A program made the position numbers and the translations under genes. The notes beneath the pieces were generated by a model that ran no database searches, was not told the origin of the DNA, and saw nothing but the letters and a program-made list of their open reading frames with translations. From positions 1-34,796 of the forward strand of contig JYFJ02004109.1 in assembly GCA_000934665.2 (NCBI GenBank): a stretch of DNA of 34,796 nt, in the 5' to 3' direction. This stretch comes from Catajapyx aquilonaris. Its lineage: Eukaryota. Each line of letters begins with the position of its first letter. The stretch's first letter is position 1. Positions 1 through 23,216 of this stretch are shown one piece after another.

Positions 1-1042
1 TCGTTCTCTCCAGGTTAGTTCCAGCCCTGCCTCCCCATGACTCCTTATTTCCAGGCATGAGGCATCGCTAACCCAGCGCCATTGTGGCCTTTTCAGAGCA
101 ACTGTACGAGATAAGGAAGGCGAGGCTGGCGCGGGTGATATGCGACAACAGCGACCTTCTCGACACCATCCAGCTCTACCCCATGGTGCTTCCGGATCAC
201 GAAATGTACGTGTCTCTTCACCAGAGAGAAATCCTTTAATGTTTTGTCTCCACAGCTTCAACAAGATAGTTGTTTATTCCACTAATTTTTATTCAGAATA
301 TTGAAAGGCTCCATTAATAATGTCCCTATCGTGGTAATGTTCCATCAGGTGCTAACACACTCTTCTTCCATCTGGATTGATCGACCCAGATTGACCCTCG
401 AACCTATTCATAACCCACTGTCTCCACTAGAACTCGATGTAAGGTTGCCAGAGGAACCAGAGGAACCTGATGATGTCAATGTTTTCTAGTAGTCAGAGTC
501 TTATTTCTTCTGTCTTAGTCAAAAGATTAATGTTATGTATGAGATATGAAAACCTTTGCACAATTTGACATAAGCACAACTTGAGTTAGTTATTAATGAA
601 ATTAGTCAGTTTCGACACGAAACATAAGTTACACTAACGCCATTGCTGCTTATGTTCAGTCGTGTTTATATTAAAATGCGCTTTATTTATTTATTTATTT
701 ATTCATCTGGCAACCTTCAGCAAAATCAAGTCTAGAAACTGCTTGTTGGTTCAAATCGGTTGTAGAGTCGCTCATGGTCCAGCCAGAAGGATATTAAGAG
801 ACGGATCCACATAATGTAGCATAACGCGAACGTTTTCCACCGATTTCTGGCTTGTACCTCCAAATCTATAGTTATCACATTTTAACATTTGCCCCCCCCC
901 CCCTTTCCCCGGCCTCCCACCTCCCTTTTACAGCAACCCCCGTGTGCCATGCCGCAGCAGCATAATCCCCCACCTGGACCTGAGCAAGTGGGCGGACTAC
1001 GACGGGGGAGGTGCCTACGCCTCGCATGACTCCCATGTTCTC
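1..1042 (+). CDS. Animal heme peroxidase (peroxidase-cyclooxygenase family, chorion peroxidase/peroxinectin-like), 3' exons only. Exons <1..13, 97..205, 934..1042
   Basis: GT-AG introns 14..96 (phase 1) and 206..933 (phase 2) join SFSP-EQLYEIRKARLARVICDNSDLLDTIQLYPMVLPDHEI-NPRVPCRSSIIPHLDLSKWAD. This matches the C-terminal signature of the An_peroxidase domain (QL.EIRK..LAR.ICDN...NPR..C...LDL..W). A phase-0 donor GTGAGT follows at 1043. The gene starts upstream of the window. Confidence 0.9.
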
Positions 1043-5195: not shown

Positions 5196-6097
5196 ACTGT
5201 ACATTACGCACATTTTTTTTCTTCTGGTGGTGGGTATGTCGTATACGAAATACTGACTTTTACGTATTGAAAATTACTGCCTCGACAACAATGGGATCAC
5301 ATCAGGATGTTGCCCTTGTTGGAAGACTCTGACGTCATTCCTTTTTCATCACATTCCGACGTAATAACGGCGGTGCTACTTGTAACAAGGATAATCCTTA
5401 GGAAAAGAGCAATAACTGCATATTACAGTTACGGTTTTCTTTCCAACTAGGACGTAAAATTGGGAGGGGCTCAAATAGCAACGATAATAATTATGAGCAT
5501 AAAATTGTTACTCTCACCCTCCAGAGTAATTATTGTGACAACCTACGAGGACCCAGAACGAAACGGCACTTAGATATATACAGTTTTGTTGCAGCAACAG
5601 CTTTCAAATTTATTCGCTACAGGTTCGGAATGGCATAAAACGTGACAAAACTCTAACTTAAAACGGCATCATGCAGTCTCCAGTAAAACATGCCTAACTT
5701 CTAGTCTAAGACATAAGGCTGGGTTGCTTAAAAGTTGGTAAGCCCTGAGCAAGTAATATTAATCCCCACTTGTTTTTACCACGTGATGACCCGAACCTCC
5801 GCCTGCCATCGGCTGATAAGGCTTGTGGTTGTCGACGTTATGCTCTGGTCATCACAAGCTCGTAACAGTCATAAGGCAGAGCCCCTTTTGATGACTTGGA
5901 GATGATCAGGCATCTCACCACTCGTGTGTACGAGTATTTAGGCAGATTTACTCCTGGTGTTTCCTAAGTACTCAAAAGGGGGTCTGGTCGTGCTTGATTG
6001 CATTCTGAACACGCGGTCGAGACGCCGCGCCGGCCACGCATCTCGAGCGCGTCTTCCCTGTCCTGGTATCTGATTGGTTCCCCCTGGCCTCTTGCAG

Positions 6098-6904
6098 AAG
6101 GACACCCTGGTGATCTACCACCCTTTCCCCCTGGATCCAAACCTGGCCTCCGCTTCTAAAGGAAAGTACGTGAACCAGAAGGGCCTGGAGCAGCTGCGCC
6201 ACGCCTTGAAAGATGGCCAATACGCAGGGATCTACTCGCGTCACCCGGAGAAGCCTTTCAACGGATACATCAAGAACATCCTCACCCCTAGGCCCATAGT
6301 GGTGGCCCTACACCCGGGACCCAGGCCAGCCTCCACTGACCTCTTCTCCGGGTCAGGATCAGGGTCCGGGTCCGGATCAGGAACCGGGTTCGGCCCTCTT
6401 CCTCCTCCGCCGCCTCCCCCGCCGCGCAGGCCCAGACCTCTCTTCAGACGTCCCCTGATGCGACACAGGCAGTTCCTCCACGGCTCCCCGTCCGCCCCTG
6501 TGCTGTCCTACGGCACAGGCAACGCGCTGCACTACGGATTCAGACCCACTCACGGGCCGTACGGAAACGTCTCGTACCTGGGGCTACGCAGGTACGGTCT
6601 GCCGGACGACGACGTCTTCCCCGTCCGGCCTAACGTCAGGGTCACCAAGGACGTCTCGGCCGCTGCTGAGGACAAAACTGAGGTCGAATCCACCACCGAT
6701 TCGGACACCAACACCACTGCGACCACTGATGCGCCCGAGCGGTCCAGACGGAGCCCGGACGACCAGACGGTACCGGAAAGAAACGTCACCAGCAGGGCGG
6801 ACACTACTGGTCCGACCAAGTCCAGAGGCATTCTGGACAACATCTTCGAGTTTGTGCAGTCCGTTATCACGTCCGTCAACAGGCTTTTGAACGGAGGGAG
6901 CTAA
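6098..6904 (+). CDS. Large terminal coding exon (268 codons) of a low-complexity Gly-Ser/Pro/Thr-rich, probably secreted or cuticular region. Either an alternative last exon of the peroxidase or the last exon of a separate gene
   Basis: Acceptor CCCCTGGCCTCTTGCAG ends at 6097 (phase 0). Long GC3-rich open frame to TAA 6902-6904 with a (GS)n tract, poly-Pro, an RSRR furin-like site and an amphipathic C-terminal helix. Confidence 0.7.
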   Translation, partial: KDTLVIYHPFPLDPNLASASKGKYVNQKGLEQLRHALKDGQYAGIYSRHPEKPFNGYIKNILTPRPIVVALHPGPRPASTDLFSGSGSGSGSGSGTGFGPLPPPPPPPPRRPRPLFRRPLMRHRQFLHGSPSAPVLSYGTGNALHYGFRPTHGPYGNVSYLGLRRYGLPDDDVFPVRPNVRVTKDVSAAAEDKTEVESTTDSDTNTTATTDAPERSRRSPDDQTVPERNVTSRADTTGPTKSRGILDNIFEFVQSVITSVNRLLNGGS

Positions 6905-11571: not shown

Positions 11572-12430
11572 TACCCGATTCCTCCAAATGGGAAACGGGA
11601 TGATTCTATAGTATGAGGCGCCACAGGTGTCATCAACTGAAATGTGTGGCAACCCGGCAGCACCTGTTGCTGGCATGGTTAGAATGTTCCACAAATCTTT
11701 TGAACCGTCGCGTCGGTTAATGGCTAACTGCTGTGCAGCAGTGTCATTTCAGATGGCCATTTCAAAAAGATTAACCAGCAGATAGAGGCTTAACTGACGA
11801 TTTAGAAAAGGTTGAGATTATACCGTCCCACTATATGATGTTTGTCCCTTGTAAATTAAACAAAAAGGTTTGGCGCTGAGTTATTCCCTGGCCTGTTGAA
11901 ATACATTTGAAACCAAAAATCGATCGGTCAAACTCGGTCGGGGTCAAGCTGACCTTTTGGGGTCATTCGAACCTTACGTAACTAGTTCACATTCATACAC
12001 CCACCTGCACTTGATAAATTGTTGATTGGTCCCAACCCTTCTCCCCCCAATGGCAAGCAGTGTTGACCCAGAGATGGTGGGTGGGTGGGTGGGTGGGGTT
12101 GACCAAATTATGCATAATCCCCTGGCCTAGGGTCACGCAGACCAATAAATCAGGAGGTAGGCTGCCGCTGCTGATTATTATTGGCGTAGTTAGTGCGACG
12201 TGTTTGCCCAGATGAAGAGAAGCAGGTAGGGAGAGGAGAGGCTCGAATGCAATAAATCCAAGCAAGAACTCGATTAGTATCGGAGGGGGAGGGAGCAGGG
12301 GAGGGTATGGGAGTAAAGGTTGGGAGGGATCGTTGCAAAAGAGGGGAATGGGGTGGGGGGGTTGGATGTGCGCATACACATCCCCCCTCCCCCCAAACAT
12401 ATATGGATGGAGAGGTGGGGGGATATACTC

Positions 12431-12438
12431 TATATAAG
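12431..12438 (+). promoter_or_regulatory. TATA box of the + strand eclosion hormone gene
   Basis: TATATAAG lies about 110 nt upstream of ACCATG|GTGAGT (start codon directly followed by a consensus donor). Confidence 0.6.
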
Positions 12439-12544
12439 AAGAAGACGAAGGGGCAGAGGTCGCAGGAAGATATTTCATCAAGAGCTGGACATATACAAAT
12501 CTACAGCTGCTCGCCATTTCTCATCGGACAAGACCAACCTGACC

Positions 12545-14291
12545 ATGGTGAGTGTCCCATCGGGCCTGTCCATCCATCCATCCACAAACGACAAAAAAGT
12601 GTGTCTTAACATAACATTTCATACTCTACAGTCTACACATTACGTGTGGTGATAATCCAAAGGTTGGATATTCGGGGTGAACTTACCCATTGGGTTATTA
12701 ACAGTGGTAGCCGATTCTAGGATGTTAGAAGTAAGCAACAGGTTAGCCAAGTGATGGCCTGACTATGGGAGCCTAAATTACCCCGGTGGATTCCCCTCAA
12801 ATTTACCCAAATTCTCTTCGCTTCCTGTGTACACGGGATTCCCCTCGTCTTAGCAAAAAAAATGCACCTGAATCCTGAGTAGTGTTGAAACCCCCCCAGT
12901 TTTTTCAGGATAAAACAGAATATTTGTGGTGTTTTGGCCACGGGTAATGCAAAAATTTAGGGGCTGTCTTACGGTAGACTGATGTGAACCTCGTTTGTCT
13001 ATTTTTAACACGTTTTAAGTAAACAGGCAGGATTGACTGATTGGCATACTTTCCATCTTTTAAAAAAATTGATTTTAAAAGTCACAGTTAGTAAATACAG
13101 GGTGTATGTGAATTCTTCTGCCAATATGATGCGGGTGGTAGGGGTTGCGTATGGTAAAGGCATGGCATTGGTCAGAAAGGCCGGCGACGATCCGCTTTGG
13201 AGATGCCAACCTTTGACTTCGACAATGTGTATCCTGACAAGTGTGAATACCTCCGTGCATGCGTGCATTGCTGGTTGCCGGGGCCAGGCGCTCGCACTCC
13301 CAGACCAGGCAACCAGCAACGCAGACTTGTACTGGGGTATCCATACTTGTCAGGATAAACATCGTCGCTGTCAAAGGTCGACATCTCCAAAGCGGATCGT
13401 CGCCGGCCTTTCTGATCAATGCCATGCATTTACCAATACACAACCCCTACTACCCGCATCATATTGGCAGATGAATTCACGTACACCATGTACATTGGCA
13501 ATGTGGAAAAAAACCTATAGGTTTTTTTAAAAATATTTCACTGTTTCGCTAAAATATGACATTTTTGTCAAAAAAAAAAGCCGATTTCCCACTGCGTAAA
13601 TAAGTCCGGACCTCGAAATGGTTCAGAATTCCCTCCAAACCCTTTGGATTCTCTTCTGATTTCCCGGCTGCAAAGTTTTGACGCAATCTCCGGAGAAGTA
13701 GTTGGCAACCTACAGTTGAAGGCCCCATTACAAGAAAGATAACATTCACAACACTGATCTCCCTCAAGTGGCGTAGTGGACATGAGGCAACGAGGAGCGG
13801 CCATTTCTGGCAGCCCCTACGATCGGTTTATTTGCATGGATTCATGCGATTATCAGGCTTGCCAGTGGTATATCTGTCTAGTCTATAGGACCAATAATTC
13901 CGCTAGTTGTGCTCCTTTTGACAAAATCCAACCCCCGATTGGTCCATTCCTCCAGGCCTGTTCTTCATGCGTGCTGGTGTTTGGCCTGCTGGCCTCGCTT
14001 CAAATGACAGTCAGCGGTGCCAACAACTGGGAGAGAAACGTGGTCGGCATCTGCATCGCGTGAGTACAGGCCTATTAGGCTGGTCCACGTCCGCCTTCCA
14101 TCCCCCATTTGACTTTTCGATATACCCATCTACCTTCCAGTAACTGCGGCCAGTGCCAGCAGATGTTCGGCGACTTCTTCCAAGGAAAGGCGTGCGCCGA
14201 GGCCTGCCTGGCCACTGGAGGCCTCTCCGTACCCGACTGCAACAACCCTGCCACCTTGAGGAACTTCATCAAAAGATTCAAGAAGTACTAG
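12545..14291 (+). CDS. Eh: Eclosion hormone prepropeptide, EH2/crustacean-like paralogue (85 aa). Exons 12545..12547 (ATG only), 13956..14059, 14141..14291
   Basis: Spliced product M-ACSSCVLVFGLLASLQMTVSGA-NNWERNVVGICIANCGQCQQMFGDFFQGKACAEACLATGGLSVPDCNNPATLRNFIKRFKKY*. It has a signal peptide, the EH six-Cys spacing CX3CX2CX12CX3CX10C and a PDCNNPAT..F.KRF tail. All junctions are GT-AG and in phase; the first exon is inferred. Confidence 0.92.
13098..13490. mobile_element. 393-bp almost fully palindromic Tc1/mariner-type MITE in intron 1 of the + strand EH gene
   Basis: TA|CAGGGTGTATGTGAATTCTTCTGCCAATATGATGCGGGT... pairs with ...ACCCGCATCATATTGGCAGATGAATTCACGTACACCATG|TA. Arms of about 180 bp around a short loop. 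This explains the near-identical ORFs predicted on both strands here. Confidence 0.88.
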
Positions 14292-15247
14292 CCAATGGGG
14301 AACTTTGAACTCGAGCAGCTACACAAACCAGCCCTTCTTTGTCTTCATCCGTGTTTTGGCAGACATCTTGTAAGATCTGACTTGTTCGGTTCATGGTTTC
14401 GCTTCTATTTAATAATAATAATAATCAATAACGCGCTTGCCGGGCTGCCTAAGCTTGGCTCAATGGCTGCTTAAGCGCAGATTAGTGATGACTTAAGCAC
14501 TATTGGCTGGCTGCGTAAGCGGTGCTTACGAGGGGCCGTGCAATCACCTGGCTCTCGGAATGTTCAGTCCCTCGAGTAAGCCGTTCTCTTCTCAACTCCG
14601 CTCTACATCACCGCCATTTCACCGACCGACATTTATTTATTAATCTTTGGTTTCTGCAGATGACGCAGTGCATGATTGTAATTTGCCAAACTCATTAGTT
14701 CAACAGTGCTGTACACACAACGCGTGATAATAAACCTGGTCGCTACGTGACTCTTGGCGGGTTTTTATCCCCTTGCAGGAGCCGGCCAGATGACATCATC
14801 CGGTGGGGGATACTGCTGGTGACAGGCCTTGACATGGGGGGCAGGGTGCATGGGGTTTGGATACTGTTTAATTACCGTGTTACTCGTAATTAATAGCCAA
14901 CAGGTCAGGAGGGTGGCTCTGGTGGGAGGGGAAGGTGTTTGACCCGAATTTAAAATGCATCAGCAGTTCCTAGAAACATTGGTTTATTATTTGGTAACTT
15001 GTTCCAGCAGTAATGCAGGTGGGTCATGCACACATGTGCAATTGCAGATCGTTGACACCCGAGTGACCCTGACCTGCAGAGATGCACTCGGAGCACGCCA
15101 CGTTGCGTGACGTCGTGACTATCTGACGTCATCTTGGCACATAGTCTATCATTTGCCCCAGGCCTTGCAGGAATGGGCATCTTGCAGGTACGAAATTGCA
15201 GGAGTGTGACGTCACGGACAGCCATCTTGTTGTTGGATGGCGTCACT

Positions 15248-15580
15248 TCACTCCATCTTGGAGAGGAATGGAGCGATGGAGGTTGCGTTTGCGCAGTCGG
15301 GCATGAGCTTCCCTCGCAGCTTGAGACAGGCCTCTGCGCAGACGGGCCCCTCGAAGTAGTCCCCGTACATGGTCTGGCACTGCCCGCAGTTCTTCAGGCA
15401 GACGGAGACAGGGCCGGGGAGGGCGCACCACACCTGGTCCGCCCCGGGGCCGCCCCCCCACCACCCGAACAGGATCGCCGCCCACCACCACCACCACCAC
15501 CAACAAGGCCTCCTCCCTGATCCTCCTCTTCCAGATGGCGGTGGTGACCTGTGACCCCGACGCCCCACCCCGCCGCGCAT
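15248..15580 (-). CDS. Eh: Eclosion hormone prepropeptide, insect-EH-like (EH1-type) paralogue (110 aa), single coding exon
   Basis: MRGG...PCWWWWWWWAAILFGWWGGGPGADQVWC-ALPGPVSVCLKNCGQCQTMYGDYFEGPVCAEACLKLRGKLMPDCANATSIAPFLSKME*. EH Cys spacing plus FEGP.CAE.C.K..GKL.P.C...SIAPFL.K, as in insect EH. Acceptor TCTTCAG at 15599 opens the exon at 15598. Confidence 0.93.
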   Translation of the reverse strand: MRGGVGRRGHRSPPPSGRGGSGRRPCWWWWWWWAAILFGWWGGGPGADQVWCALPGPVSVCLKNCGQCQTMYGDYFEGPVCAEACLKLRGKLMPDCANATSIAPFLSKME

Positions 15581-16726
15581 CTCCACATGCGCCGGGACCT
15601 GAAGATCATTCAAAGCTCAATTAAATCATTCTGACAGCTAATGCAGATCCCTATACAATGCCGGGGCTGATTGTTCGCGCTAAGAAACCCCAGTTGGAAG
15701 CCAAGCAATAACACGGACAAAACAGTGGCCCGCCCTCTTGGTTATGGGTTGCTGCAAATTAAACAATCCGCAACTTTTGGGGGGTCAACTCCAGGATGGT
15801 AGCCAACCTGGTGGCCGTGAACTGGCCTGGAGTGTGGGGGGTGAGAATGACCCTGAATGGTCACCCATCAGCTAGGCGCATGTCCATGCAGCATGTGCAT
15901 GCCGGATGATGAGTAATTATTCATTGATTGTTGCGATGGGAGTAGGTCCCGTTAATGATCCTCTTTACAATGCGTTGTATACCGTCGGCAGGCAGCTAGG
16001 TGATGAGTTGCGCCGATGAATTAGTCATAGTTGGCCCGACTAATTAATGCACCAGCTAATATACCGACACGCTAGCCCCCTGTTCCCTCGAGAGAAGACA
16101 CCAACATTGGTGGAGGCCTACAAGCGCTTCGCAATAATTCGGGCTCAATCAGCATCTGCTTACTCATGTAATGGTGCTCATTTAGGCTCGCAAGCTGCAT
16201 GGCCGAGGCAGCACTGTGGGGAATACAGCCTAAGACACTTCCATCCCTGAAGGTCTCTTGGAGAAAATAATGCACACTTCCCAGTACACATCACGGTCTA
16301 ATTTGTCCGTTTTCATTTAATTGGCACTCAGCTGCTTATTCTTAAGCTATTACCTTCAAAAGTATTAGCTGGTTATATTCGAGCTCGGAAGTTCCACGAA
16401 TTTTCCGTTGGCAATGGCCCAATGCATCTAATTTCAATGACACGACTCGGTGTTATTATCAAGTAATACTTTTGCCAACCACTGAATAAAGTGCCGATCA
16501 TTGTGCAAGAAATGGCTAGCTGAATCATGCAGTTCACTTGGGTTGAGCTGCATTTATACCTCCCTTTGATGCCCATTATATTTTGGTAACAAAGTTGCGA
16601 ATACCAAATGATATGCATTCTAGCGATCGCCTTGCTGCCAGACATGCGCGAGAAGCGATTGCGTCTGGAACGCGTCTGGCTTTGAACCTCGCGCCTTTTG
16701 TGTTAGTATGGAGAGTTAATGACCAC

Positions 16727-16769
16727 TGATGATGATGATGGTGGTGGTGGTGGTGATGGTGGTGGTGGT
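16727..16769. repeat. (GAT)n/(GGT)n trinucleotide microsatellite
   Basis: tgatgatgatgatggtggtggtggtggtgatggtggtggtggt. Confidence 0.85.
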
Positions 16770-16771
16770 AC

Positions 16772-16915
16772 CTTAGAAGCGAGTCCTGCAGCGATGAGAG
16801 GGGTGTATCCCCCCGAACTGGACTGGCCCCCTTCGGACGGAGCGAGAGTACCTCAGAGTGTACGAAATGTGTTGCGAGACTCCGTAAGGTCTCCCCCCAC
16901 AGTTCCTTTTATATA
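16772..16915 (-). promoter_or_regulatory. TATA box and probable non-coding first exon of the - strand EH gene
   Basis: TATATAAAAG on - at 16915-16906. An ATG-free leader follows, ending at donor AAG|GTACCA (16771) or GAG|GTACTC (16851). Confidence 0.55.
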
Positions 16916-17013
16916 CACTCGCTCCAGTCCCTCTTCCCATCCAGGGTCGGGGTGATCAAACTCTGCAAGTGCAAGAGAGTAGTATCCTTTTTGGCCTGTA
17001 CTTCCGCTAACTA

Positions 17014-21858: not shown

Positions 21859-23216
21859 TTATTTAGTGTGAAATGTATATATCGTGTGCAAACCTTGTGC
21901 TGAGGAGGGTCTGGTGGCTTCCTGGTTGTTTGGTGGTAATGGAGGTGCTGGTTGTTTGGCCTCCCAGCAGCAGAAGACACGAAAGCAGAAGGTCCCGAAT
22001 GCGTCTGCTGCCCTGCTAAGGCCACTGGGGCTAGTGGATGCGGCAACATAAGCCTTATTCTCTCCCGCCCCCGCCCCTGGCACGGCCCCTCCTTCGCCCC
22101 CGCTGCTGCTGACGTCATTGTCGCTGTCTCCGTCTCCCTTGTTAATGTTGGAAGGAGACTCGTCCTGACCCTCCGGATCCTTCCCCTTCTCTGCCTTGTA
22201 GAGGGCATTTCGAAACCTCCTCCCCAGAAGACGCTCCTTCCAACCTGTCTTCCTCTTCCTCCTCCTCCTCCTCTTGTTGTTCCCGTCCACTGAATCGCCC
22301 TCCTTCATGTGCAGCAGGGCTAGAGCTGAAGCACAGGGGGGGGGGGGTGTCAACAACAGTCAGTGTTATATTAGATGATCCTATATATACATGCAGGTGG
22401 AAATGTAAGTCCCTATATTATGACCCACCGTGTATGGTGGCGATGTAGTGGGCCTCTGCCATGGACTTGGCAGGTCCCAGGATGGGCCTGTAGGATGTCA
22501 GGATGTCCCTTCTCTCCTGCTGGGAGAAGTCCGGGAAGCTGAGCTGGAGGCGTCGACGGTCGTGCTCCCACCACCGACACTCCTCGTCGTCGCAGACCTC
22601 CACGGCCACCCTCACCCTGCCTTCCACCCGGCCCATCTCCGTCACATGCAACTCCTCCTCCACTTCTTCCACATCATAATCAGCATCGTCGTCGTCGTCG
22701 TCGTAGGACGAGGAAGGACCAGCAGCGTCTTTGTCGCAGCTGCTGATTGTGCTTATTGTCGACACCTCGGCAGGACATTTCTGGAGTGGGTCCTCCAGAG
22801 GCGGAAGCTCGTCGTCGTCGCTTGGCTCGCTGGTGATGTATTCCCCTTCCTCGACACTGTCGCTCAAGTCAAACACTAGGACCTCTCCATCCTCCTCCTC
22901 CTCGTCCTCTTCGCCGCTCCTCCTGCATGTCGGTGGGAACAACTTCATTATGAGCTCGTCTAAAAAATTTATTGTTGGCTGGTGCGACTATATACAATAC
23001 GCACCATACCAGCGCGCCATCATCCTCCAGGTCCATCTGGGCGACACCAGTCGTGGTTGTTCCTTCACCGCAGTAGCCTCCAACACCACCATCTCTTATT
23101 ACTGGTCCTCTTCCTGCCGTGGTCGTCGTTGGTTGCATTGTCACCACTCTCCCCCTTTCCTCCAGCTCCTCCAGCTCCCTCTCCTCCCTGATCCCCTCCA
23201 ATGTGGATCTGTACAT
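21859..23216 (-). CDS. Uncharacterised acidic protein (about 390 aa). Proposed exons 23216..23005, 22922..22429, 22325..21859
   Basis: Three open frames join in phase through introns 22923..23004 (GTGCGT...TGCAG, phase 2, less certain) and 22326..22428 (GTGGGT...TTCAG, phase 1). Features: D/E-rich tracts, a KRRRRRKRK basic cluster and an FCFRVFCC motif. AATAAA lies on - near 21725 and a TATA-like element near 23525. Confidence 0.6.

What the first reader, a model, noticed from the sequence alone, without database searches (positions are those of the whole stretch)
12431..16915. Tail-to-tail pair of two divergent eclosion hormone paralogues
Seen: two complete EH genes, each with its own TATA box, converge with stop codons only 956 bp apart. 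Both keep the CX3CX2CX12CX3CX10C core but differ in the C-terminal half. The - gene ends LKLRGKLMPDCANATSIAPFLSKME (insect-EH-like) and the + gene ends LATGGLSVPDCNNPATLRNFIKRFKKY (like the second, crustacean-type EH). Established: EH triggers ecdysis through a receptor guanylyl cyclase, and two EH types are known in some arthropods, mostly from transcriptomes. Inference: physical linkage suggests the two subfamilies arose by an old local inverted duplication and may form a co- or reciprocally regulated two-ligand moulting module. I do not know whether this arrangement has been described.
Basis: partly seen in the sequence, partly recalled or inferred. Interest (0 to 1): 0.8.

Follow-up and report, generated by a model that had tools for sequence, protein, structure and literature searches.

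The report
Linked pair of moulting-hormone genes
Two old, already known versions of the arthropod moulting trigger eclosion hormone sit end to end in this genome, a neighbourhood that many insects and crustaceans share and that has been noted in print for beetles.

Summary
Real. Two eclosion hormone (EH) genes converge, with 956 bp between the stop codons; they are the only two Pfam EH matches over the cut-off in this assembly. The + gene (85 aa, three exons) is EH2/EHL-type and the - gene is EH1-type. They fall on opposite sides of the family tree, and an AU test rejects them as sister copies (p = 0.03). So the duplication is old, as published. Linkage is not new: Veenstra 2019 reports beetle EH pairs on one contig in all four orientations, tail to tail included. 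I found it is wider: 14 of 18 EH1/EH2 pairs share a contig length (decapods, cockroach, hemipterans, beetles). Four of 13 EH-bearing metagenome contigs hold both genes, all convergent, and one also has the same upstream peroxidase. Convergence may therefore be ancestral, though short contigs favour it. Co-regulation is unsupported. Corrections: EH2 is not crustacean-specific, and in shrimp the + type is the neural hormone. The - gene's leader looks frame-shifted (a run of seven Trp). Expression is untested. The scan's notes hold no earlier EH finding.

The parts
12431..12437 (+). TATA-like box of the EH2-type gene
   Evidence: sequence; position about 115 nt before the ATG; the word alone is common in the window
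12460..12547 (+). EH2-type gene exon 1 (5' end approximate), ending in the ATG at 12545-12547 followed by a GT donor
   Evidence: start of transcription inferred from the TATA box, not shown
13096..13492 (.). about 400-bp palindromic dispersed repeat (MITE-like) in intron 1 of the EH2-type gene
   Evidence: inverted arms 86-91% complementary; 97 matches among 40 of 336 candidates scored in the assembly
13956..14059 (+). EH2-type exon 2: signal peptide and first cysteine
14060..14140 (+). 81-nt phase-2 intron just before the Asn that precedes Cys2; same position in all EH2-type genomic loci examined
14141..14291 (+). EH2-type exon 3: Cys2-Cys6, PDCNNP-type tail, stop
   Evidence: Pfam PF04736 E 8e-17; tree
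14292..15247 (.). 956-bp spacer holding both 3' UTRs; AATAAA at 14729 (+), and at 14983 and 14632 (-); overlap of transcripts possible only if the distal - signal is used
   Evidence: ends of transcripts inferred
15248..15580 (-). EH1-type ORF, 110 aa, single coding exon, all six cysteines, SIAPFL-type tail
   Evidence: Pfam PF04736 E 9e-26
15483..15548 (-). leader stretch whose codon bias points to another frame; gives the Trp run in the EH frame
   Evidence: GC3 22 of 22 in the other frame, 10 of 21 in the EH frame; mature core 0.86
16772..16885 (-). putative non-coding exon 1 of the EH1-type gene (5' end approximate)
   Evidence: donor-like site after 16772 and no ATG in it; inferred
16907..16915 (-). 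TATA-like box of the EH1-type gene
72..1006 (+). last two exons of an animal haem peroxidase gene, same strand as EH2; same order and orientation in locus L016
   Evidence: Pfam An_peroxidase E 2e-4, below cut-off on 49 aa; tblastx to L016 77% on both exons, E 5e-37

Best explanation
The locus is the ordinary arthropod EH1 + EH2 (EH + EH-like) gene pair. It comes from one local duplication older than the split of insects and decapods, and the two genes have mostly stayed neighbours since. Each gene has its own promoter and makes a secreted six-cysteine peptide. Both most likely act through receptor guanylyl cyclase and cGMP in the moulting cascade, with labour divided by tissue: one from neurosecretory cells, the other from peripheral tissue. 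The linkage is most likely inherited rather than a regulatory device. Shown here: gene anatomy, subfamily assignment, age, shared linkage. Taken from papers on other species: receptor route, tissue split, separate transcription factors. Inferred, about 55%: in this animal the + (EH2-type) gene is the neural one, as in shrimp, because it is the better conserved copy and has the clean signal peptide.
For: Tree of 68 rows: + gene inside a 28-row EH2/EHL group (96/90), - gene on the 36-row EH1 side (95/94). AU test rejects the two as one clade, p = 0.032. Each is closer to its own type elsewhere (best 69% and 65%) than to its neighbour (49%). The phase-2 intron before Asn-Cys2 is in the + gene and in 9 of 9 EH2-type genes on metagenome loci, and absent in the - gene and in 8 of 8 EH1-type genes. 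14 of 18 EH1/EH2 pairs share a longest-contig length. Identifiers are consecutive or nearly so in Laodelphax, Homalodisca and Homarus and in L. vannamei. Beetles: same contig, all four orientations, no pattern. Tribolium EH and EHL promoters answer to different transcription factors, and knockdown of either gene lowers cGMP. Shrimp: one gene in gill and epidermis, the other in eyestalk and brain.
Against: The trees rest on 46-52 columns; bootstraps had not settled in two of three trees, and long branches move (spider/tick and decapod EH1-like rows change place). All four two-gene metagenome loci and this window are convergent at 0.2-1.1 kb, more constant than a neutral relic would suggest. No expression data for this organism. 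The - gene's leader is abnormal.
Confidence: 0.75

Rival explanations
1. The convergent arrangement is kept by selection: the two genes share 3' enhancers or limit each other by overlapping or colliding transcription, forming a co- or reciprocally regulated two-ligand module.
For: 4 of 4 two-gene metagenome loci are convergent with gaps of 204, 491, 614 and 1110 bp; with this window that is three separate lineages. Poly(A) signals allow a short overlap here. Knockdown of one shrimp EH raised the other.
Against: Beetles show all four orientations. Short contigs can hold both coding exons most easily when the genes converge, so the sample is biased. Three of the four loci are close kin (EH1 91-93% identical). 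blastn found no match between the window spacer and those loci, only the coding exons. Separate promoters and factors in Tribolium.
Confidence: 0.17
2. The - (EH1-type) gene is not intact as read: either the assembly has single-base errors in the G-rich leader, or the gene carries real frameshifts (compensated, or a sign of decay). This does not exclude the best explanation.
For: The only in-frame ATG gives a 110-aa ORF with a seven-Trp h-region; 15548-15483 has GC3 22 of 22 in another frame, where it reads as a basic n-region plus a Leu/Val run; the first ATG after the acceptor (15588) is out of frame. A decayed second EH gene is reported in one beetle.
Against: The ORF is open from ATG to stop, the mature part keeps all six cysteines, GC3 0.86 and 65-67% identity to locust EH. 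A 2.6-kb G/C-rich zinc-finger exon in the same contig is open throughout, so indel errors are not frequent here.
Confidence: 0.3
3. The two genes are a recent, lineage-specific inverted duplicate that diverged fast, as proposed for locust, monarch and mosquito EH copies.
For: Such recent duplications are reported in other insects. The coding cores still align at the DNA level (75% over 68 nt).
Against: Tree, AU test, type-specific tails, different intron layout and matching pairs in distant species.
Confidence: 0.03

Closest known systems
Beetle EH1/EH2 gene pairs (Veenstra 2019, PMC6585902; section 'Eclosion hormone' read in full)
   Same: Two EH genes on one contig; tail to tail is one of the configurations listed.
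   Different: There orientation has no pattern and no distances are given in the section; here the gap is 956 bp and the animal's EH1 is far more diverged from the winged-insect EH1 type.
Tribolium EH / EHL (Zhou et al. 2024, PMC11650714; part 1 of 5 and passages)
   Same: The + gene groups with EHL, the - gene with EH.
   Different: Function and promoters are tested in Tribolium, not here; the passages seen do not mention linkage.
Litopenaeus vannamei LvEH I / LvEH II (PMC11641175, parts 1-2 of 6; PMC11673531 passages)
   Same: LvEH II (82 aa, Cys7, dibasic site at 79-80) matches the + gene type; the two shrimp genes have consecutive gene ids.
   Different: Numbering is inconsistent between papers. 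The decapod partner gene is long-branched; its orthology to the - gene rests on the tail motif and linkage, not on the tree.
Termite/locust analysis of EH duplication (Veenstra 2014, PMC4237046; passages)
   Same: States that the second EH gene of termite, Tribolium, Nilaparvata and Diaphorina is old.
   Different: The passage does not address genomic arrangement.

Membership tests
Eclosion hormone family (PF04736) | Profile match over the curated cut-off | tested here: met
   89.8 and 61.1 bits against cut-off 25
Eclosion hormone family (PF04736) | Six cysteines spaced CX3CX2CX12CX3CX10C | tested here: met
   both genes
Eclosion hormone family (PF04736) | N-terminal signal peptide directly before the mature hormone | tested here: inconclusive
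   clear hydrophobic core in the + gene; Trp-rich, probably frame-shifted leader in the - gene; hydropathy only, no signal-peptide predictor
Eclosion hormone family (PF04736) | Activates a receptor guanylyl cyclase and raises cGMP; released at ecdysis | not testable with these tools
   taken from papers on other species
EH2 / EHL subfamily (+ gene) | Groups with sequences named EH2 or EHL | tested here: met
   28-row group, 96/90, with Plautia, Nilaparvata and Tenebrio EH2 and Tribolium EHL
EH2 / EHL subfamily (+ gene) | PDCNNP-type tail ending in a KR-aromatic/aliphatic motif (my own reading of the alignments) | tested here: met
   alignments A2, A4
EH2 / EHL subfamily (+ gene) | Phase-2 intron before Asn-Cys2 (my own observation, not a published criterion that I saw) | tested here: met
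   window and 9 of 9 EH2-type genes on L004-L011 and L016
EH1 subfamily (- gene) | Groups with insect EH / EH1; SIxPFLxKxE-type tail | tested here: met
   EH1 side 95/94, 34-row group 99/93, alignment A3; exact place within the group unstable
Co-regulated convergent gene module | Shared cis-elements or overlapping transcripts with coupled expression | tested here: inconclusive
   no conserved spacer sequence by blastn; promoter words shared are only low-complexity; expression not testable

The most novel reading that the evidence does not exclude
A peroxidase > EH2 >< EH1 block, with the two hormones converging within about 1 kb, is the ancestral pancrustacean state, later scrambled in beetles. 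The neural role sits on EH2 in decapods and on EH1 in insects, so the pair swapped jobs while staying linked, possibly because the short spacer holds shared or competing 3' control elements.
Probability: 0.3. Interest if true: 0.6.

Novelty: new member of a known kind. Interest (0 to 1): 0.35.

Why it matters
Two EH types and their age are known, and linkage is reported for beetles, so the locus itself is ordinary. What this check adds is modest but usable. Linkage extends to decapods, a cockroach and hemipterans. A tail motif plus one intron position sorts EH1 from EH2, which clears up the inconsistent numbering in crustacean papers. And the convergent, peroxidase-flanked layout may be the ancestral one. 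If so, the roughly 1-kb spacer is a small, defined target for asking how neural and peripheral EH expression were divided between insects and crustaceans.

Tried and rejected
No RNA holder listed for 12300-17000, so no reads were laid; this says nothing on expression. A single-sequence word search with the - peptide found nothing; profile searches did. Scans of viral and prokaryote collections found no EH relative. A third weak hit in the own genome (E 0.09) is noise: its frames show no EH cysteine pattern and it is not among the family hits. Five of the 18 metagenome loci (L017-L021) have only short, weak matches without the cysteine core and were dropped before the count of 13. End-to-end matches between the termite-like loci L005 and L014 looked like an overlap, but the same end also matches elsewhere in L005 and in L006, so it is a repeat and was not counted. 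Chelicerate rows joined EH2 in one tree and left it in another, so I do not claim a pan-arthropod EH1/EH2 split. Rows left out of trees: 8 truncated or doubled rows and 40 rows lacking the full cysteine pattern or tail; four long branches. The supplement held for PMC4770511 has no EH sequences, so no comparison with wingless hexapods was possible. EH receptor paralogues were not searched, as no reference sequence was in hand. Searches of the scan's own notes gave nothing on EH.
Full report
Setting. The window is a whole contig, G000:C2218, of a 286-Mb assembly in 20,583 contigs. The organism is an arthropod by its EH genes; I did not place it further. Its EH1 is 59-67% identical to winged-insect EH1s, while the insect-like EH1 of locus L016 reaches 87-89% with the same set. 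So it is probably not a typical winged insect (inference).

Observation. The + gene has a TATA-like box at 12431, a first exon ending in ATG (12545-12547), exon 2 at 13956-14059, an 81-nt phase-2 intron and exon 3 at 14141-14291. Together these give an 85-aa precursor. The - gene has a TATA-like box at 16915, a putative non-coding first exon and a single coding exon ending at 15248. The stops are 956 bp apart. Both match PF04736 over the cut-off and keep the six-cysteine spacing. They share 17 of 25 residues in the first part of the core and 7 of 20 in the second. They are the only two family matches over the cut-off among 7 candidates scored in the assembly.

One flaw. The only in-frame ATG of the - gene (15580) gives 110 aa with seven Trp in a row as the hydrophobic core, and the first ATG after the acceptor (15588) is out of frame. 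Over 15548-15483, third positions are G/C in 22 of 22 codons in another frame, where the stretch reads as basic residues followed by Leu/Val. In the EH frame it is 10 of 21, against 0.86 in the mature core. Part of the stretch is a GGT repeat and the region is GC-rich, so the count overstates the case, but the contrast remains. Either compensated frameshifts or single-base assembly errors would explain it. Without reads I cannot choose.

Which EH is which. A profile search gave 170 relatives, of which 150 were listed; two further profile searches added named ones. In a tree of 66 named or labelled proteins plus the two window peptides, the + gene lies in a 28-row group (96/90) with Plautia, Nilaparvata and Tenebrio EH2, Tribolium EHL and a conserved decapod type. 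The - gene lies on the EH1 side (95/94). An AU test rejects the two as sisters, p = 0.032. Columns are few (52) and support is rough. The tails agree with the tree. So does gene structure: the intron before Asn-Cys2 is present in the + gene and in 9 of 9 EH2-type genes on metagenome loci (L004-L011, L016), and absent in the - gene and in 8 of 8 EH1-type genes (L008, L009, L011-L016). For L009 only 33 bases upstream of Cys1 are on the contig, which still covers the site. Tick-like predicted proteins also start at this site, so the intron may be older than EH2. 'Crustacean-type' is a misnomer: the closest named match to the + peptide is from the stick insect Timema, 69-71%.

Linkage elsewhere. 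I paired EH1 and EH2 records wherever my outputs listed both for one species (17 named species and one unnamed contig). 14 of 18 share the longest-contig length. The four that differ are Timema podura, Tribolium, Tenebrio and Dendroctonus; for the last three the records probably come from different assemblies (inference). For chromosome-scale records this shows only the same chromosome. Tight linkage is shown by small contigs (12 kb unnamed, 56 kb Callosobruchus, 162 kb Nicrophorus) and by identifiers: consecutive locus tags in Laodelphax, consecutive accessions in Homalodisca, two apart in Homarus, and consecutive gene ids in L. vannamei. These give no orientation.

Orientation. A metagenome scan returned 18 loci, 13 with a real EH. 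Four hold both genes (L008, L009, L011, L016) and all four are convergent, with gaps of 204, 491, 614 and 1110 bp. L008, L009 and L011 are close kin (EH1 91-93% identical); that they are water fleas is my recollection and comes from no call. L016 is insect-like and also carries the last two exons of a peroxidase gene upstream of EH2 on the same strand, 77% identical to those at window 72-1006: the same order as here. Against this: nine loci hold one gene only, the eight termite-like ones with about 1.0-2.8 kb downstream and no partner; short contigs favour convergent pairs; and the independent lineages number three, this window included.

What is in print. Veenstra 2019 (PMC6585902; section read in full; supplement search showed only the legend of an alignment) says most beetles have two EH genes, often on one contig, in all four configurations including tail to tail, with no clear pattern. 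Veenstra 2014 (PMC4237046; passages) calls the second gene old. Veenstra 2016 (PMC4888303; passages) lists two decapod EH genes and loss of EH2 in Drosophila. Strigamia has two EH and two EH-receptor genes (PMC4244043; passages), and EH receptors are multi-copy across arthropods (PMC13449613; passages). PMC7818427 (one table passage) and PMC4770511 (one passage) added nothing on arrangement. Ten full-text searches surfaced no statement on linkage outside beetles, on a conserved orientation, or on the peroxidase neighbour. The library lacks most subscription papers. Tang et al. 2022, seen only as a reference, treats EH/EHL phylogeny and gene structure and may cover part of this. Figures and supplements of the decapod papers were not seen.

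How it works. From established work cited in these papers, EH acts on a receptor guanylyl cyclase. In Tribolium the two promoters are driven by different factors and knockdown of either gene lowers cGMP, which the authors read as one receptor route (PMC11650714; part 1 of 5 and passages). In L. vannamei one gene is high in gill and epidermis and the other in eyestalk and brain, both peak in premoult, and knockdown of the first raises the second (PMC11641175; parts 1-2 of 6). By length, cysteine numbering and the dibasic site, the neural shrimp gene is the + type of this window (my mapping). Carcinus likewise has one CNS and one peripheral EH (PMC6158917, PMC13234976; passages); I did not see those sequences. 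The best reading is therefore two separately promoted ligands that divide neural and peripheral duty, with linkage inherited from the duplication (0.75). Selection on the convergent layout is a live but weaker rival (0.17). Which gene is neural here is open; I lean to the + gene.

Verdict. A real and correctly read locus, and a new instance of a known gene pair whose linkage is already noted in print. The added value is the wider linkage, the intron marker and the hint of an ancestral convergent block. Interest 0.35.

Noticed in passing
window 13096-13492: About 400-bp near-perfect palindrome in intron 1 of the EH2-type gene; a dispersed family in this genome (97 matches among 40 of 336 candidates scored, 67-89% identity apart from the self match), MITE-like.
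   Followed up: partly
window 6074-6901 (+): GC-rich 275-codon open frame between the peroxidase and EH2, with a Pro-rich stretch and Arg-Ser-Arg-Arg-like basic sites; no Pfam match and no usable Atlas hit; not matched in L016. Possibly an exon of a secreted protein.
   Followed up: partly
   Followed up: partly
window 22421-22987 (-): Acidic 189-codon open frame without Pfam match, between EH1 and the zinc-finger gene.
   Followed up: no
L008, L009, L011 (+ genes): EH2-type peptides with long C-terminal extensions containing dibasic sites and ending in an aromatic motif; L009-L011 also have an 8-residue insert before the last cysteine.
   Followed up: no
L016 2172-2336 (-): Strongly diverged EH2-type gene (best identity 46%) that keeps the diagnostic intron and the convergent position.
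   Followed up: partly
P0155, P0206: Two public records labelled as spider toxin and wasp venom protein are eclosion-hormone family sequences.
   Followed up: no
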